64,000 nt of DNA from positions 67,084,001 through 67,148,000 of the forward strand of contig NW_027361671.1 of the NCBI RefSeq assembly GCF_039654945.1. Direction: 5' to 3'. Each line of letters begins with the position of its first letter. Position 1 is the first letter of the stretch. Shown piece after piece: positions 18,001 to 24,000 of this stretch. Made by a program: the position numbers. This DNA is from Dendrobates tinctorius. Taxonomy: Eukaryota.

Positions 18001-21000
18001 GCATCCGATTACCCACGTTCAGCTGAATTAGGGACTGACGTCAGCGGCGTCCGCACTACGGCGTCATTTCATCGAAGGCACTCTTCAATAAAATGGTGCT
18101 GCAGTGCAGTATGCGCATGCGCTGCTCCCGACTCCACACTGCGCAGCCGTCAAGTCTTCAGTCACAAGGACACATCTCCGTTTACATTATAAATATAATG
18201 CATGACACAATACATGCAATACAGTCCACACTCTTACAGCATGACATTAATTGAAACCAAACAGCCCCCATTATAGTTAAGCTATGATAGTTCCCATGAC
18301 CATTATTGGGTTTGACATCTAAAATATGAGATGTCAGGGATGAATATTATTATTTGACCTTTGTATTGCGTAAATGATCTACAATGATTGGTTCTACATA
18401 AAACTTTGAAAATGTGCTCCGTTAAGCCTCACAACTAAAAGTACGCTACTTTTTTTCACTTTTGCTGGTATTTTTGGTGAAAAAGGAAACAATTTTAGTG
18501 GAAGTGGTCATCAAAGCGTATTTCCTGACTGTTTGGAGGGTGGAGGTGCTGCGTTAGGGGTCCTGTTAGCATAGTTTCTGACCCATTACTTTGCTTGGAA
18601 GGATGCCATTGGCTTCATCTGCCTAAGGCTTCAAAATACCTTGTCCTGACCCTGATCATATTGCTAAAGATACCAAAAAGCAGGTCTGTATATGAGAAGA
18701 ATCTAACCAAAAGCAACATAGATGTTTTATATATATATATTTGTGCATAAAAGTATTATGCAAATATGAAAAAGAAAGTGTGTAGATACAGTGACTTTCT
18801 GTATAAAGGAGCAGATGATGACGATTCCACTTCTTGGGCCTTGGTTTGCACTTATGCTGATTTTGGACATCCAGATCTGGATCACACATGACAGAGACGA
18901 GATCTGTGTAGTTGAAGTTTTCCTGGATTCCTACAGCATTGCGATCAACCATATGGCCTTCTGTCTGACCATGGGCAGTAAGGTGAAGGAGCAGCCGCTT
19001 CCTTCCATCTGTCCATGGCCTTTTAGGTGAAGGAGCAGCCACTTCCTTCTGTATGTACATGGCCAAGTAGAAGAAGGAGCAGCCGCTTCCTTCTGTCTGT
19101 ACATGACCAAGTAGGTGAAGGAGCAGCCGCTTCCTTCTTTTTGTAATATCCGGTAGGTGAAGGAGCAGCCGCTGCCTTCTTTCTGTAAATATCCGGGAGG
19201 TGAAGGAGCAGCCGCTGCCTTCTGTCTGTCCATATTCGGTAGTCTTCTCCTTACCACCACATTGTAGATGAGTCGTCCAGATGGTGACATAGCAAGTATT
19301 GCTGAAAGAAGTCCTTCAATTTCATCCTTTAATTACTTGCTATGTTGCTCCAGAGGAAGGCGAAAAATAACCCTGAGGACTCGTTGATGGATTGTCCTCA
19401 TATCAAGGGAAAAAAATTCCTTCCTGATCCCAAATATGGTGATCGGAATAAATCCCTGGATGTTTGGTGCTCAAATCTACGTGGGTGTTATGTGGTGGAA
19501 GCTCGGTAGGTTTGTCACAGTCCGGTTAATGCGAAAGTCCAGTTTTGTCGTGTCATCCGATTAATGTAAATCTTCAATCCTGGATGTTACTGGAATGGGG
19601 CTGATTGTTATCAGCTTAATAGTCTTGCTGTAAGAAGAGAAATATACACGTCTGAGAATCAGCTCCTCACGTTCAGTCTATACAGTTTACTGGGGGATAC
19701 AACAATAAGGGGTATAGTGGGTAAGTGCGTTACTGGGTAACATTATGGATGTCCGTATGTGTTATACTTACATAGTAATATGGGAATGGTGGGTCGGATC
19801 TGCCGCACTCCACATCGCTCCAGTCTATGGAGTGGAAGAACGGGTGGGACCTGATGGATGTTGTTATGGCAAATCGGGTAGATGGAGTTTTGCAGAGAAG
19901 CTAGAAAATGAATGAGACCATTAGTCATTAGATTATGTATTATTACTGATAAGTTATTACACAATGTCTATGGACTGTCCACATCTTATCTTCTATCCTT
20001 GTAGTCCACCGTCATCTTTATCCATCTGGGCAGCACGGTGGCTCAGTGATTAGCGCCGCAGCCTTGCAGCGCTGGAGTCCTTGGTTCAAATCCCACCAAA
20101 GACAACATCTGCAAGGAATTTGTATGTTCTCCCTGTGTTTGCGTGGGTTTCCTCTGGGTACTCTGGTTTCCTCCCACATTCCAAAAACATACTGATAGGG
20201 AATTTAGATTGTGAACCCCATCAGGGACAGTGATGATAATATATGCAAAACTGGTAAAGCGCTGAGGAATATGTTAGCGCTATATAAAAATAAAGATTTA
20301 TTATTATCTGATACTACTCACCCCTTTTATGATGTCAATGGTATTAGTGCATATCCCTGGTGGAAAATAAGGGATGTCCTCACGCAGAGACTGGTGGTAT
20401 TCATCCAGTGAGCCTCTGCTGTAAAATGGCCAGTCACCTACACTCATCATATATAGGATGACTCCGAAGGAAAAGGAGTCTGCCAGATGGTTGTATCCTT
20501 CCTCATTCATTATCTGTGGGAACATGAGATTGGAGAGAAGCTGAATATAACGGGAAGAATGACACACAGAGAATATGAGTATCGGTCTGTGATTAGATGT
20601 GAGCAGGATACATTGGGATCAGATTATCCCTCCTGCTATCGGCACCAATCACACACTGATGTTCCTTACCTCAGGCGCTACGTAACCCTTAGTGCCAGCA
20701 TTCCACCTCACTATGGCACCCTCAGACACATTCATGACTGATAAGCCAAAGTCGGAGATTTTGATGTGTCCGCTGTCTTGGATGAGGATGTTCTCTGGCT
20801 TCAGGTCACTGCAGGGAAAAGGAGCAGACACTGATTGTGAGGATTATTCATGAAAATAACTTTTTACAATAGATATGTAAGGAGACAACAGAGAGTCACA
20901 GGTGACAGATTTATGGAGGTGAAATGATTACCTATGTATGATGCCGTGATCATGCAGGAATTGTAGTCCGCACACCATCTCTGCCGCAAAGAGTCTGTGG

Positions 21001-24000
21001 AGATGAAAGTAAAAGATGGATCAGTGGTTACATACACATTCATACGGAGAACATGAGATCACAAATGTGTCCTTTTCACCTCATTATTTGCTCTTGTTGT
21101 CATTCTCCATTGCTCCAGGACTACATTGTGCGGGCAGCGGATTATTAAGATTCGCTATAAGACATTTACCTTGTTGTCTTTGTGTTAAACATCATTGAAT
21201 CTTTCATGTGGTGAAACAGGTCTCCTCCGGCCATATAGTCCATGGCTATTGCATATTCCGTAGGTGTCTCCATAAACGCCCTCATAGACATTAGGTAGGG
21301 GCACCCGGCAGCCAGTCTCAGGACTTCTACCTCTGTAGAGATTATGTGCTCACAAGATCTCTTGTCCATGATCTTAATGGCCAGCAGTCCTTCACTGACC
21401 GGATCTGATGCCAAGCTGACCTGGAGAAAAATCACAACAGATCAGACCAAACTCCCATCTATTACTCTGTAACATGTCACTGGTTTATTCCAAGTATCAT
21501 TACATATGAACATCCTGTAATGAATAAGTCCATCCCTCCTGTGTATCTGTGCAGGATACATTGAGGGTCACGGACAAATATAAATTGACACTTACTTTTC
21601 CATAGCCTCCTTTTCCAAGATCTTTCAGGAACTCAAGACTGTAAAGGTCCATAGGTTGGTCTGTGTGGACCAGTCCTCTGTGTGGAGAAATCTGTACACT
21701 GGCATCACCAAGGCGTCGTGCCGGCATGTATGGTGTGTCGATGGACATCATTTCCACTACATCGATGGACATCTTATCCATTCCATCTGCAAGAGATGAT
21801 ACAAGATTAGCCCCTTAGCGAACACATGGTGGAAATGTTTGTCAGGTTGTGTAGTAAATGTATGGAATGGGCTCAGGAGCTGAGCATGCATCGTACCAAT
21901 GCCTGCTGCCACCTGCCTATAACGTCAGCGACCAGAGCGTTCTCCGATTACTGTAGTTTATCCATTTCAATGCTGACAATTGTATTTAAACTAAGTGACT
22001 TCCAATTTGTGTCTACGCAATTGCAGGACATAATTGCTGTGGGTTGGTTGTTTAAAATGACTACCTGGGCCTGCTGAAAACCCCTGACTCTCACTTCCCT
22101 TCTCCTGTGAAGACCAGCCTGGCTTAATTTCATATGAGAACATTAATTTAGCTATATACAGTTCTATCACAGTACAAGCGATCAGAAAATCACAGGTTCA
22201 AGTCCCCTAAGGAGACTAAAGAAAAGAAGTAACTGAAAAAATTGTTACAGAAGAAAACAGAAAATGTAAAAACTTTAATTAATAATAGCAATAATAATGA
22301 TAATAATAATTTGCATCTGTATTATCACTACATCTATATTGGTCCGATACACAAAAATGCAATATTTATTATTATTAATGCAAACCGTAAACACTGAAAT
22401 GAGAAAAAAATGAAAATTGATTTTTTGAGAGTGCCAGATCCACTTAAACAATTGTAATGAAGAGATATCACAATGTCCGCTCTACCCAAGAAAGGTATCA
22501 ATAAAAGCTACAACTCGACACGGGAAAAAAAAGTCCTCACACAGCTCCATCAAGCTATCAAAATTAAAAAGATACAATGTCTCAAAATATGGGGTCACAA
22601 ACCAATTTTTTTTTTAAATTCACAATTTTCTTTCAACATCAAATAAAATGAAAACCCCTATGTATATTCAGCATTATCATAGTTGTCACTGACATGGAGA
22701 AATATTTTGTGAGGTCATTTTTGCCACTTTTTTTACCCACACTTTAAATCTTTTTCCCTATTTTCCAGAACATTGAATGGTAAAATAAATAATGTTCAAA
22801 ACTACAGCTCGGTCCACTAAAAAAACAAGTCCACGTATGGCTACTTTGGCAGAAAAATGAAAAATAGTTATTGGTTTTATAAGGAGTAAGAAAAAAAAAA
22901 CGGACAGTTACCAGCTCAAGAAGGGGTTAACAAATATAGCTCCAGAAGAAATATTACAATTTTATACAGCATTATGTAAATGAGCAGGAAATGTCTAATA
23001 TTTGGGCTCCCATTCATAATAACTGTCCATTAGCAAAAAGTTCCTGTTGCCCATAGCAATGAATCACAGCACAGATTCTATTTCTTAACATTCTATAGAA
23101 CAATGAAAGCGCATTGTGATTGGTTGCTATGGACAACAAAGACAGTTTTTCTACACTTTCGATAATTGTGGCCAGTACATAATATTAGGAGTATAATCCC
23201 ACTCACCCCAGTCTTATTATACTGAGCAGTGTCCATCTTACCTGGTCCCTCTTTATCCAGTGAGGTGTTTGGTGGAGAATCACTCAGCTGTTTGTTATCT
23301 GGGATGGAGATGTTCACAGCTGATGTCCTGGACCTCCGTGATGCCCCATTCCCATTTATAATGGGTTTAGCATAGATGAGACGTCTTCTACATTGGACAA
23401 CCCAGTCTCTGCTGTTCCTGATCCTCTTCTGGGCTGCCGCTCTTTGTAGGTTTGGTGTCACCAGACTTTCAGATCTGGAGAATGTGACATGTCTTGGTGT
23501 TTCTTGGAGAACCTCTTCCAGCTCTAACTCTGCGCTGATGTTTCTACGCTTATTGAGGATGTCTTCTTTGTTCCTCCTCCGTATTTCAGGGACCAGATCT
23601 CCGATTTTTTTCAATGAGATAAGAAAGGCCCTCTGAATCTCAGCGGAGGCTGCAGAGTGAGAATCCATGAGGGTCTCCATTTGCCTTTTCTCTGTAAGGA
23701 TCTCATGTCTTTTGGTCTTTCTCATTTTCTCCAGATTTTGTCGTTTGAAAGCCATTTCTGAGGCTTCAGTGTCCATGTCCAGTAATATAGAGTCTTTTCG
23801 CCCTAAAGCGAACAATGGTACCTGCTCTTCATTTATTCCTCTCTTCTCTCTCAGAACCCAATCTCTTTGGGCTCTTCTCTCTTTATCCATTTTAAAATGC
23901 ATTTTTGCTTCGTTTGTCACGAAAAACAAAAGGGGTTGCCTCCCCTTGGGAGTCTGTAAGGCAGTGATTTTCCTTAGGCTGCAACAATGGAATATAGAAT

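What the first reader, a model, noticed from the sequence alone, without database searches (positions are those of the whole stretch)
19616..23902. Intact 8-exon kinase gene hidden in a transposon-dense region
Seen: eight exons join in frame via canonical splice sites with all core catalytic motifs, while most surrounding element ORFs are broken. Introns 2-7 are short (~120-420 nt). Inference: a functional or very recently duplicated member of a lineage-expanded PKC-like kinase family rather than a PRKCD/PRKCQ ortholog.
Basis: partly seen in the sequence, partly recalled or inferred. Interest (0 to 1): 0.65.

Follow-up and report, generated by a model that had tools for sequence, protein, structure and literature searches.

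The report
Tail-less PKC-theta-like kinase gene, intact
An intact eight-exon gene among broken transposons encodes a protein kinase whose core resembles protein kinase C theta, but it has a new helical front end and lacks the usual PKC regulatory parts; it belongs to a small, undescribed gene family.

Summary
On the minus strand, eight exons (23902-19616) join in frame through seven GT..AG introns (1455, 175, 175, 123, 156, 421, 144 nt) to give 545 codons plus TAA. One caveat: the split codon at the exon 4/5 junction makes the catalytic loop H-S-D, not H-R-D.

Searched exon by exon, exons 3-6 map in order onto the Pfam kinase profile. Exons 6 and 7 match PKC theta best among solved structures.

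Exon 1 (220 aa) matches no family. It is predicted as one long helix. It found 9 representatives among 1.84 billion proteins. The full-length ones share the architecture: this N-terminal domain, a variable linker, and a PKC-theta-like core ending just after "PPF". None has C1, C2 or an AGC tail. None of 7 kinase domains has Ser/Thr at the activation-loop priming site.

It is therefore not a PRKCD/PRKCQ ortholog. It is a member of a distinct, small, fast-evolving family. The copy is no more degenerate than its relatives. Expression, selection and organism stayed untested because the shared protein database was off. The joined protein was never built or searched.

The parts
23242..23902 (-). Exon 1 (661 nt, ends in phase 1). 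It encodes the 220-aa family-specific N-terminal domain. Alternative in-frame starts lie at 23890 (best Kozak context) and 24013.
   Evidence: Matches 9 of 9 relatives at 49-82% identity. No Pfam family reaches its cut-off. AF2 predicts helices 4-20, 43-133 (pLDDT about 80-96) and 150-172, with the rest disordered.
23903..24013 (-). In-frame upstream extension of 37 codons starting at ATG 24013. It is either 5'UTR or an alternative N-terminus, and it contains a 9-aa block identical in P0002 and P0007.
   Evidence: 22 of 37 residues are identical to the head of P0007, the same level as exon 1 (129 of 214).
21787..23241 (-). Intron 1 (1455 nt, GT..AG), AT-rich.
   Evidence: No second copy in the window.
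21596..21786 (-). Exon 2 (191 nt): variable linker plus the start of the kinase domain (Gly-rich loop G-K-G-G-Y-G-K).
   Evidence: It is the least conserved exon, at 32-65% identity in 7 of 9 relatives. The e1/e2 junction residue Asp (G|AT) matches P0005.
21170..21420 (-). Exon 3 (251 nt): N-lobe, with A-I-K Lys, alpha-C Glu and the hinge.
   Evidence: Pfam Pkinase positions 23-98, E 2.8e-07. 43-61% identity to 6 of 9 relatives.
20932..20994 (-). Exon 4 (63 nt): alpha-E helix up to the His of the catalytic loop. The split codons are AG|A = Arg at its 5' edge and AG|T = Ser at its 3' edge, which gives H-S-D.
   Evidence: 79-89% identity to 5 of 9 relatives.
20670..20808 (-). Exon 5 (139 nt): catalytic loop D-L-K-P-E-N, D-F-G, and the activation loop to A-P-E. 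Trp sits at the position of the AGC priming Thr.
   Evidence: Pfam Pkinase positions 123-167, 45.9 bits, which alone is above the 31.7 cut-off. Best PDB matches are GRK5/6, S6K and AKT. Family alignment.
20322..20513 (-). Exon 6 (192 nt): C-lobe (D-S-F-S-F-G and onward).
   Evidence: Pfam Pkinase positions 170-212. Best PDB match is PKC theta, E 3.6e-07.
19901..20321 (-). Intron 6 (421 nt). It contains an interspersed repeat (about 20033-20216) with a second copy at 32230-32410 (85% over 184 nt).
19772..19900 (-). Exon 7 (129 nt): end of the kinase core (Arg, H-P-F-F, I-D-W, P-P-F) plus four aromatic-rich residues.
   Evidence: Best PDB match is PKC theta, E 1.7e-05. 56-72% identity to 5 of 9 relatives.
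19616..19627 (-). Exon 8 (3 codons plus TAA). This is the least certain exon.
   Evidence: The acceptor ...TTACAG is read directly. It is too short for homology. Relatives likewise end 2-3 residues after the e7-equivalent match.
19328..19333 (-). ATTAAA, a possible polyadenylation signal 283 nt after the stop.
   Evidence: It is the only AATAAA/ATTAAA match within 2 kb downstream. Motif match only.
25105..27151 (.). Satellite of a 20-nt unit (about 101 copies), 1.2 kb upstream of the gene. It bounds the possible promoter region.
18957..19233 (.). 44-nt tandem repeat (6.4 copies) just downstream of the gene.

Best explanation
This is an intact, intron-containing (not retroposed) protein-coding gene on the minus strand. 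It belongs to a small and, as far as I could search, undescribed gene family.

The encoded protein of about 545 aa has three parts:
1. A family-specific, highly charged N-terminal domain dominated by one roughly 90-residue helix, with conserved basic clusters.
2. A fast-evolving linker.
3. A protein kinase core derived from the novel-PKC (theta/delta) branch of the AGC kinases. It stops a few residues after the core ends.

Inferred mechanism: a catalytically competent Ser/Thr kinase that cannot be regulated in the PKC way. It has no pseudosubstrate/C1/C2 region, so it cannot sense diacylglycerol. It has no activation-loop Thr, turn motif or hydrophobic motif, so it cannot be primed by PDK1/mTORC2. 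The Arg of H-R-D, which normally reads the activation-loop phosphate, has become dispensable in the family (R, G, C or S). Activity would then be set by abundance, by location, or by partners bound through the N-terminal helix. The basic clusters suggest nuclear or nucleic-acid targeting.

Shown: gene structure, family membership, architecture, presence or absence of motifs.
Inferred: catalytic competence, mode of regulation, localisation.
For: Structure: 8 exons, 7 of 7 introns GT..AG, phases consistent, 545 codons.

Kinase core: exons 3, 4, 5 and 6 map in order to Pkinase positions 23-98, 103-121, 123-167 and 170-212 (4 of 7 exons hit, e1, e2 and e7 did not). The best PDB match for e6 and e7 is PKC theta.

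Family: exon 1 alone finds 9 proteins at E <= 1e-3 among 1,835,955,588 representatives, all 9 at E <= 1e-10. All 40 tblastn matches of these proteins to the window fall within 19772-24013, in order.

Architecture of the relatives: Pkinase in 6 of 9; C1, C2 or Pkinase_C in 0 of 9. P0006, P0002 and P0004 end 0-6 residues after the P-F that closes the core.

P0006 against the PDB: PKC theta 181.8 bits, eta 160.7, alpha 149.5, PKN1 145.2, SGK1 139.2.

Priming site: 0 of 7 kinase domains (6 from relatives plus the window) have Ser/Thr at the position aligned with the priming site of PKC theta. They have W, E, D, G, K, D and G.

H-x-D residue: R in 4 of 6 relatives' domains, G and C in the other two, S in the window.

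Not degenerate: at columns invariant in all other members, the window has 5 changes in 78 kinase columns (E>G, T>S, D>N, S>T, N>D) and 2 in 36 N-terminal columns. Relatives range from 2/76 to 10/84 and from 1/27 to 7/41.

N-terminal domain: as conserved as, or better conserved than, the kinase exons against P0004 and P0006 (about 70% against 54-72%), which speaks for a functional domain. AF2 of exon 1 gives helix 43-133 with block pLDDT 79-96.
Against: No expression evidence of any kind, and no nucleotide sequence of paralogs, so no dN/dS.

The only neutral yardstick on hand points to fast protein evolution. Against P0005, exons 1 and 2 differ at 65 of 259 aligned residues, while the translated start of intron 2 differs at 3 of 31 (Fisher p = 0.07; exon 2 alone p = 0.012). 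That fits diversifying selection, but it also fits relaxed constraint.

The upstream 37 codons are as conserved against P0007 as exon 1 is (22/37 against 129/214, p = 1.0). If that stretch is untranslated, this would mean near-neutral evolution of exon 1.

AGC cores normally need their tail (hydrophobic motif in the N-lobe pocket, and a tail Phe at the ATP site; established knowledge, recalled). Activity without the tail is therefore not assured.

H-S-D and Trp in the activation loop are unusual.

Several relatives are evidently imperfect gene models: read-through into introns in P0003 and P0005, a missing exon 4 in P0009, and fused copies in P0002 and P0004. They are predictions, not proven proteins.

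AF2 of the full-length relative failed (mean pLDDT 38.9), so no structural statement on the core or on domain contacts is possible.
Confidence: 0.65

Rival explanations
1. It is a young unprocessed pseudogene or a neutrally drifting duplicate. The frame is open only because too little time has passed, and the gene is silent amid heterochromatic repeats.
For: It sits between satellites (25105-27151, 27834-28657, 18957-19233) and broken retroelements. It has H-S-D instead of H-R-D. Exons are no better conserved than the translated intron start against P0005. Several relatives look like defective models.
Against: All 7 splice-site pairs, the start, and every catalytic residue are intact over 1638 nt, while the nearest available relatives differ at 18-42% of residues per exon. 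Private changes at family-invariant columns are few and conservative, and lie within the family range (7 of 114 columns). Loss of the H-R-D Arg is shared with other family members (G, C) and is not private decay.
Confidence: 0.2
2. It is expressed but catalytically weak or dead: a pseudokinase or scaffold. The PKC-like fold serves as a binding module or decoy, and the N-terminal helix does the targeting.
For: It has no AGC tail, no activation-loop phospho-acceptor and no H-R-D Arg. The N-terminal domain is the best-conserved long part of the family.
Against: The Gly loop, the A-I-K Lys, the alpha-C Glu, the catalytic Asp, Lys and Asn of D-L-K-P-E-N, D-F-G and A-P-E are all kept in the window. 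They are also kept in all relatives that cover these positions, apart from a Gly-to-Asn in the loop of P0004's second domain. Pseudokinases usually lose at least one of these (established knowledge, recalled).
Confidence: 0.12
3. It is the 3' half of a true PRKCD/PRKCQ ortholog whose regulatory exons were missed.
For: Among solved structures, the closest kinase core is PKC theta.
Against: Exon 1 starts with ATG behind an in-frame stop, and it is the N-terminus of the database relatives. No C1-like pattern occurs in any of six frames of the 64 kb (0 hits). No tail exon lies downstream. Identity to PKC theta is only moderate, and the priming sites are gone.
Confidence: 0.02

Closest known systems
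Novel protein kinase C theta/delta (PRKCQ, PRKCD), catalytic domain
   Same: It is the best-matching kinase core. P0006 residues 253-530 align with PKC theta chain 5f9e residues 11-292 at 181.8 bits. Window exons 6 and 7 have PKC theta as their top PDB hit. The H-P-F-F ... W ... P-P-F ending of the core is shared.
   Different: There is no C2-like domain, no C1A/C1B and no pseudosubstrate. There is no C-terminal tail, so no turn or hydrophobic motif. There is no Ser/Thr at the activation-loop priming position. The loop reads H-S-D. An unrelated helical N-terminal domain is present instead.
Regulatory-domain-free PKC forms: PKM-zeta and the caspase-generated catalytic fragment of PKC delta (recalled from the literature; not searched or read here)
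   Same: Works-like analogy. They are PKC-type catalytic domains without C1/C2/pseudosubstrate, expected to be independent of second messengers and controlled by abundance and location.
   Different: Those forms keep the AGC tail and its priming phosphorylations, and they arise from a classical PKC gene by an internal promoter or by proteolysis. Here the truncation is hard-wired in a separate gene family with its own N-terminal domain.
Non-RD kinases and PDK1 (recalled concepts)
   Same: Kinases lacking the Arg of H-R-D generally do not depend on activation-loop phosphorylation. PDK1 is an AGC kinase without a hydrophobic motif of its own. Both are precedents for activity without the usual AGC priming.
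   Different: There is no sequence-level relationship beyond the kinase fold. In this family the H-x-D residue is variable (R, G, C, S) rather than fixed.

Membership tests
Eukaryotic protein kinase superfamily (Pfam PF00069 Pkinase) | Match to the kinase profile across the subdomains, in order | tested here: met
   Exon by exon: e3 covers positions 23-98 (30.7 bits), e4 103-121, e5 123-167 (45.9 bits, above the 31.7 cut-off) and e6 170-212. e2 and e7 gave no hit alone but align to the relatives' kinase ends. The whole joined protein was not scanned.
Eukaryotic protein kinase superfamily (active members) | Catalytic residues: Gly loop, VAIK Lys, alpha-C Glu, HRD Asp, Asn, DFG Asp, APE Glu | tested here: met
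   All are read in the per-exon translations. Only the non-catalytic Arg of HRD is replaced (Ser, split codon AG|T).
AGC kinase group | C-terminal tail after the core, with turn motif and hydrophobic motif (Pfam Pkinase_C) | tested here: not met
   The ORF stops 7 codons after P-P-F. No tail-like match lies downstream in the window. Pkinase_C occurs in 0 of 9 relatives at E <= 0.01.
AGC kinase group | Kinase core most similar to AGC members; activation-loop Thr primed by PDK1 | tested here: inconclusive
   Core similarity is met: the top PDB hits for e5, e6, e7 and P0006 are all AGC kinases. e3 alone was mixed, with CaMKIV and DCLK1 first. The priming Thr is not met: 0 of 7 domains have Ser/Thr at that position.
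Protein kinase C family (novel PKC delta/theta) | C1 (diacylglycerol/phorbol-ester) domains and a C2-like domain N-terminal to the kinase | tested here: not met
   No C1 or C2 in 0 of 9 relatives. Exon 1 has no such match. There are 0 C1-like Cys/His patterns in six frames of the window (a pattern split by an intron would be missed).
PRKCD / PRKCQ orthology | Conserved synteny, shared intron positions, and placement inside the delta or theta clade in a tree | not testable with these tools
   No vertebrate genome collection, no reference AGC sequences as tool objects, and the shared protein database was off. The architecture argues against orthology.
The new family defined by exon 1 (P0002-P0010) | The roughly 215-aa N-terminal domain, followed by a linker and a tail-less PKC-theta-like core | tested here: met
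   e1 matches 9 of 9 relatives at 49-82% identity. e2-e7 match in order the 5 to 7 relatives that cover them.

The most novel reading that the evidence does not exclude
The gene represents an undescribed, taxonomically narrow kinase family created by joining a novel-PKC catalytic core to a new long-helix, basic N-terminal domain. The family has then shed every AGC control element: C1/C2, pseudosubstrate, activation-loop Thr, turn motif and hydrophobic motif. It has also freed the H-R-D arginine. The result would be a constitutively competent, tail-less 'AGC' kinase that evolves fast and duplicates in tandem, as expected of genes engaged in immunity or reproduction. It would offer a natural experiment on how an AGC core can work without its tail.
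Probability: 0.3. Interest if true: 0.55.

Novelty: new variant of a known kind. Interest (0 to 1): 0.42.

Why it matters
AGC kinases are textbook examples of cores that depend on their own C-terminal tail and on ordered priming phosphorylations. A natural family that keeps all catalytic residues of a PKC-theta-like core but has lost the tail, the priming sites and the lipid-sensing domains would be a useful test case. This holds if the family is active, or if it is activated by its own N-terminal helix or by a partner. It bears on kinase regulation and on how new signalling genes arise by exon shuffling and tandem duplication.

[quoted passage not shown] I saw that name in frog gene tables only (passages of PMC13696840 and PMC6707386), with no proof that those entries are this family. 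The name hides the different architecture.

If the gene turns out to be silent, the finding is only an ordinary young duplicate.

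Tried and rejected
**Word-index search.** The search for homologous proteins with exon 1 failed by time-out twice, so nothing was learned from it.

**Name look-up.** Names, accessions and taxa of the relatives are therefore unknown, and the source organism could not be established. My impression that the intron-6 repeat and the element mix look anuran is recall, not a test. Nothing in the window was taken for human.

**Protein atlas.** With exon 1 the best score was 0.83, uninformative. With P0006 it returned only generic kinase clusters.

**AF2 of full-length P0006.** Run with a 10-row alignment, it gave mean pLDDT 38.9. That is too poor for any fold search, and none was run.

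**Homodimer of the N-terminal helix.** I dropped it after a heptad count gave no clear coiled-coil register: the best a/d hydrophobic fraction was 0.52 against 0.36 overall. No binding is claimed.

**N-terminal domain against family libraries.**
- Pfam gave only sub-threshold IBB (18.1 bits against the 23.8 cut-off) and Pkip-1.
- NCBIfam gave 0 families.
- The PDB, searched with a 4-row profile, gave 1 hit at E 0.75.

**Flanking repeats.** I looked for inverted repeats or LTRs that would make the gene a transposon passenger. There were 0 inverted pairs in 17000-27500.

**Second copy in the window.** None was found.

**Rfam and tRNA scans.** These were run to type the intronic repeat. Rfam gave only a 7SK fragment elsewhere. 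ARAGORN found 0 tRNAs.

**Literature.** Five full-text searches found no description of such a family. One search was badly framed and returned only general frog papers.

**Joined protein.** The spliced model was searched exon by exon only. The joined protein was not built, scanned, folded or searched.

Full report
**Observation**

The feature is real and lies on the minus strand. Reading the reverse complement and checking by script gives eight exons:

| Exon | Window coordinates | Length (nt) |
|---|---|---|
| e1 | 23902-23242 | 661 |
| e2 | 21786-21596 | 191 |
| e3 | 21420-21170 | 251 |
| e4 | 20994-20932 | 63 |
| e5 | 20808-20670 | 139 |
| e6 | 20513-20322 | 192 |
| e7 | 19900-19772 | 129 |
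| e8 | 19627-19616 | 12 |

Together they make 1638 nt, i.e. 545 codons and TAA. All 7 of 7 introns begin with GT and end with AG behind pyrimidine-rich tracts, and the phases are consistent. The intron lengths are 1455, 175, 175, 123, 156, 421 and 144 nt. The window holds no N.

Three codons are split by introns:
- G|AT = Asp at e1/e2
- AG|A = Arg at e3/e4
- AG|T = Ser at e4/e5

The last one means that the catalytic loop reads H-S-D-L-K-P-E-N rather than H-R-D. All other hallmark residues are present: the Gly loop, A-I-K, the alpha-C Glu, the Asp, Lys and Asn of the catalytic loop, D-F-G, A-P-E, and the late Arg.

The joined protein was never built, scanned, folded or searched.

**What the exons are**

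Pfam on the seven exons of 20 aa or more places e3, e4, e5 and e6 in order on the protein kinase profile, at positions 23-98, 103-121, 123-167 and 170-212. e5 alone scores 45.9 bits, above the cut-off. e2 and e7 gave no hit on their own. e1 gave only sub-threshold noise (IBB at 18.1 bits against a 23.8 cut-off).

Results against solved structures:
- e6 and e7 have PKC theta as their best match (E 3.6e-07 and 1.7e-05).
- e5 matches AGC kinases generally, with GRK5/6, S6K and AKT on top.
- e3 is mixed, with CaMKIV and DCLK1 ahead of MSK1, PKN1 and PKC eta.

So the core is AGC-like, and its C-lobe is closest to the novel PKC theta.

**The family**

Exon 1 (220 aa, P0001) was run against 1.84 billion cluster representatives. 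It found 9 proteins, all at E <= 1e-10 (E from 1.6e-133 to 1.1e-22).

Their sequences show a common plan:
- the exon-1 domain
- a variable Ser/Asp-rich linker
- a kinase domain
- an end just after the P-F that closes the kinase core (P0006, P0002, P0004), or a short unrelated Ser-rich extension (P0010, P0009)

Pfam finds Pkinase in 6 of 9, and C1, C2 or Pkinase_C in 0 of 9. The full-length relative P0006 scores 181.8 bits with PKC theta, 160.7 with eta, 149.5 with alpha, 145.2 with PKN1 and 139.2 with SGK1.

Each window exon finds its counterpart in these proteins, in order:

| Exon | Identity | Relatives matched |
|---|---|---|
| e1 | 49-82% | 9 of 9 |
| e2 | 32-65% | 7 of 9 |
| e3 | 43-61% | 6 of 9 |
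| e4 | 79-89% | 5 of 9 |
| e5 | 48-61% | 5 of 9 |
| e6 | 52-69% | 5 of 9 |
| e7 | 56-72% | 5 of 9 |

In the reverse direction, all 40 tblastn matches of the relatives to the window lie within 19772-24013. There is thus one copy in the 64 kb, and no extra exon, such as a tail exon, elsewhere.

Several relatives are imperfect models:
- P0005 reads into intron 2.
- P0003 reads into intron 1.
- P0009 lacks exon 4.
- P0002 carries the N-terminal domain about three times.
- P0004 carries two kinase domains.

The last two suggest tandem copies fused by gene prediction.

**What is missing compared with a PKC**

1. There is no regulatory region. Exon 1 starts with ATG behind an in-frame stop, and it is the N-terminus of the relatives. 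A pattern search for C1-type Cys/His spacing in all six frames of the window gave 0 hits. A pattern interrupted by an intron would escape this search.

2. There is no AGC tail. The frame ends 7 codons after P-P-F. The alternatives for the last, tiny exon (intron retention, or an acceptor at about 19690) also stop within 13 codons.

3. There is no priming site in the activation loop. The relevant position is the one that aligns with the residue before F-C-G-T of PKC theta chain 5f9e. I recall this as the Thr538 site, which is Glu in that construct; the numbering is recalled and does not come from a call. At that position the window has Trp, and the six relatives' kinase domains have E, D, G, K, D and G. 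So 0 of 7 have Ser/Thr.

4. The residue between His and Asp of the catalytic loop is R in 4 of 6 relatives' domains, G in P0006, C in the first domain of P0004 and S in the window. Since that Arg normally pairs with the activation-loop phosphate (established knowledge), its variability fits the loss of the phospho-acceptor. It shows that H-S-D is a family trait rather than private damage.

**The N-terminal domain**

It matches no Pfam or NCBIfam model and no solved structure. It is very charged, with 45 K+R and 32 D+E residues in 220, and has basic clusters at 98-120 and 159-174.

With a 10-row alignment, AF2 predicts one long helix at residues 43-133 (block pLDDT 79-96). Shorter, less confident helices lie at 4-20 and 150-172, and the tail is disordered. 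pTM is 0.24, so there is no compact fold.

No clear heptad register was found, so I do not claim a coiled coil. A homodimer test could not be queued and was dropped.

Against P0004 and P0006 this domain is about 70% identical. That is as good as or better than the kinase exons (54-72%) and far better than the linker (about 40%). This speaks for a constrained, functional module.

**Is this copy alive?**

Direct tests were not possible. RNA-seq and paralog DNA for dN/dS were not available, and the shared protein database was off.

Indirect evidence for an intact, maintained gene:
- The start, 14 splice signals and all catalytic residues are intact.
- At alignment columns where all other family members agree, the window deviates at 5 of 78 kinase columns, all conservative changes, and at 2 of 36 N-terminal columns. 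Relatives range from 2/76 to 10/84 and from 1/27 to 7/41. It is thus no more degenerate than its relatives.

Evidence that cuts the other way:
- Against P0005, the coding exons 1-2 differ at 65 of 259 residues, while the translated first 31 codons of intron 2 differ at only 3 (p = 0.07; exon 2 alone p = 0.012).

Both results are compatible with very fast, possibly diversifying, protein evolution. They are also compatible with weak constraint. The samples are small.

**Surroundings**

The gene sits between tandem arrays:
- a 44-nt repeat at 18957-19233
- a 20-nt satellite of about 101 units at 25105-27151
- a 43-nt satellite at 27834-28657

Retroelement wreckage lies further out:
- a LINE with an esterase-like ORF1, endonuclease and RT, split over four frames, at 4029-7962 (minus strand)
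- Ty3/gypsy pieces at 8952-10304, 11666-12592 and 13139-16987
- RT fragments at 346-816, 50793-52088 and 63392-64000

No inverted repeats or LTRs bracket the gene, and it has introns. It is therefore neither a retrocopy nor visibly a transposon passenger. Intron 6 carries an interspersed repeat with a second copy at 32230-32410. An ATTAAA lies 283 nt after the stop.

**Mechanism (inferred)**

The protein most likely is an active Ser/Thr kinase with a PKC-theta-type core that no longer listens to diacylglycerol, PDK1 or mTORC2. Control would come from expression level, from location, or from whatever binds the long N-terminal helix. The conserved basic clusters suggest nuclear or nucleic-acid targeting. 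That binding might also replace the missing hydrophobic motif in stabilising the N-lobe.

The closest functional analogies are the regulatory-domain-free PKC forms: PKM-zeta and the PKC-delta catalytic fragment. These are recalled, not read here, and they differ in keeping the tail.

**Known or new**

Five full-text searches found no description of such a family. [quoted passage not shown] In PMC13696840 I saw a table passage listing a Dendropsophus ebraccatus entry. In PMC6707386 I saw a passage listing proteins of toad gland secretion. I cannot tell whether those entries belong to this family. Supplements are closed and may hold more.

I rate it a new variant of a known kind: a PKC-derived kinase with a new architecture. 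It is of moderate interest, and everything beyond the anatomy still has to be tested.

Noticed in passing
window 25105-27151 and 27834-28657: Two large satellites lie directly upstream of the gene. One has a 20-nt unit in about 101 copies, with higher-order periods of 61 and 81 nt. The other has a 43-nt unit in about 19 copies. They create long spurious ORFs on the plus strand (24897-27474).
   Followed up: partly
window 47927-48726 versus 49336-50235: Two composite tandem arrays are reverse complements of each other: 21-nt GC-rich units next to 11-nt TACATACTACA-type units. Together they form a large inverted pair about 600 nt apart. This may be the two ends of a DNA transposon or a palindromic satellite.
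   Followed up: no
window 46859-46951 (-): Fragment matching 7SK RNA (Rfam RF00100, 66.7 bits, model positions 9-98 of 331). It is a truncated copy, so probably a pseudogene or a 7SK-derived repeat.
   Followed up: no
window 4029-7962 (-): LINE with a GDSL/esterase-like ORF1 region, an endonuclease and a reverse transcriptase, split over four overlapping frames (broken).
   Followed up: partly
window 13139-16987 (+), also 8952-10304 (+) and 11666-12592 (-): Ty3/gypsy-type element with zinc knuckle, protease, RT, RNase H, integrase and chromodomain, in four frame-shifted pieces. Two further integrase fragments lie nearby.
   Followed up: partly
P0002 and P0004 (database relatives): P0002 carries the N-terminal domain about three times, and P0004 carries two complete kinase domains. 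They are either fused models of tandem gene copies or real internal duplications. Either way, this hints at tandem clusters of the family elsewhere.
   Followed up: no
window 21503-21595 (-) versus the tail of P0005: The translated start of intron 2 is 28 of 31 identical to the read-through tail of relative P0005. The adjoining coding exon 2 is only 40 of 62 identical. An intron better conserved than its exon hints at diversifying selection in the linker.
   Followed up: partly
window 19772-19795 and 19616-19627 (-); C-termini of P0002 and P0006: After P-P-F, the family ends in a very short aromatic/acidic tail. It is Tyr-rich in the window and F/Y with D/E in the relatives. It faintly recalls an acidic hydrophobic motif, but it is far too close to the core to reach the N-lobe in cis.
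   Followed up: no
window 20033-20216 and 32230-32410: Interspersed repeat inside intron 6, with a second copy (85% over 184 nt) 12 kb away. It was not typed: there was no Rfam or tRNA match.
   Followed up: partly
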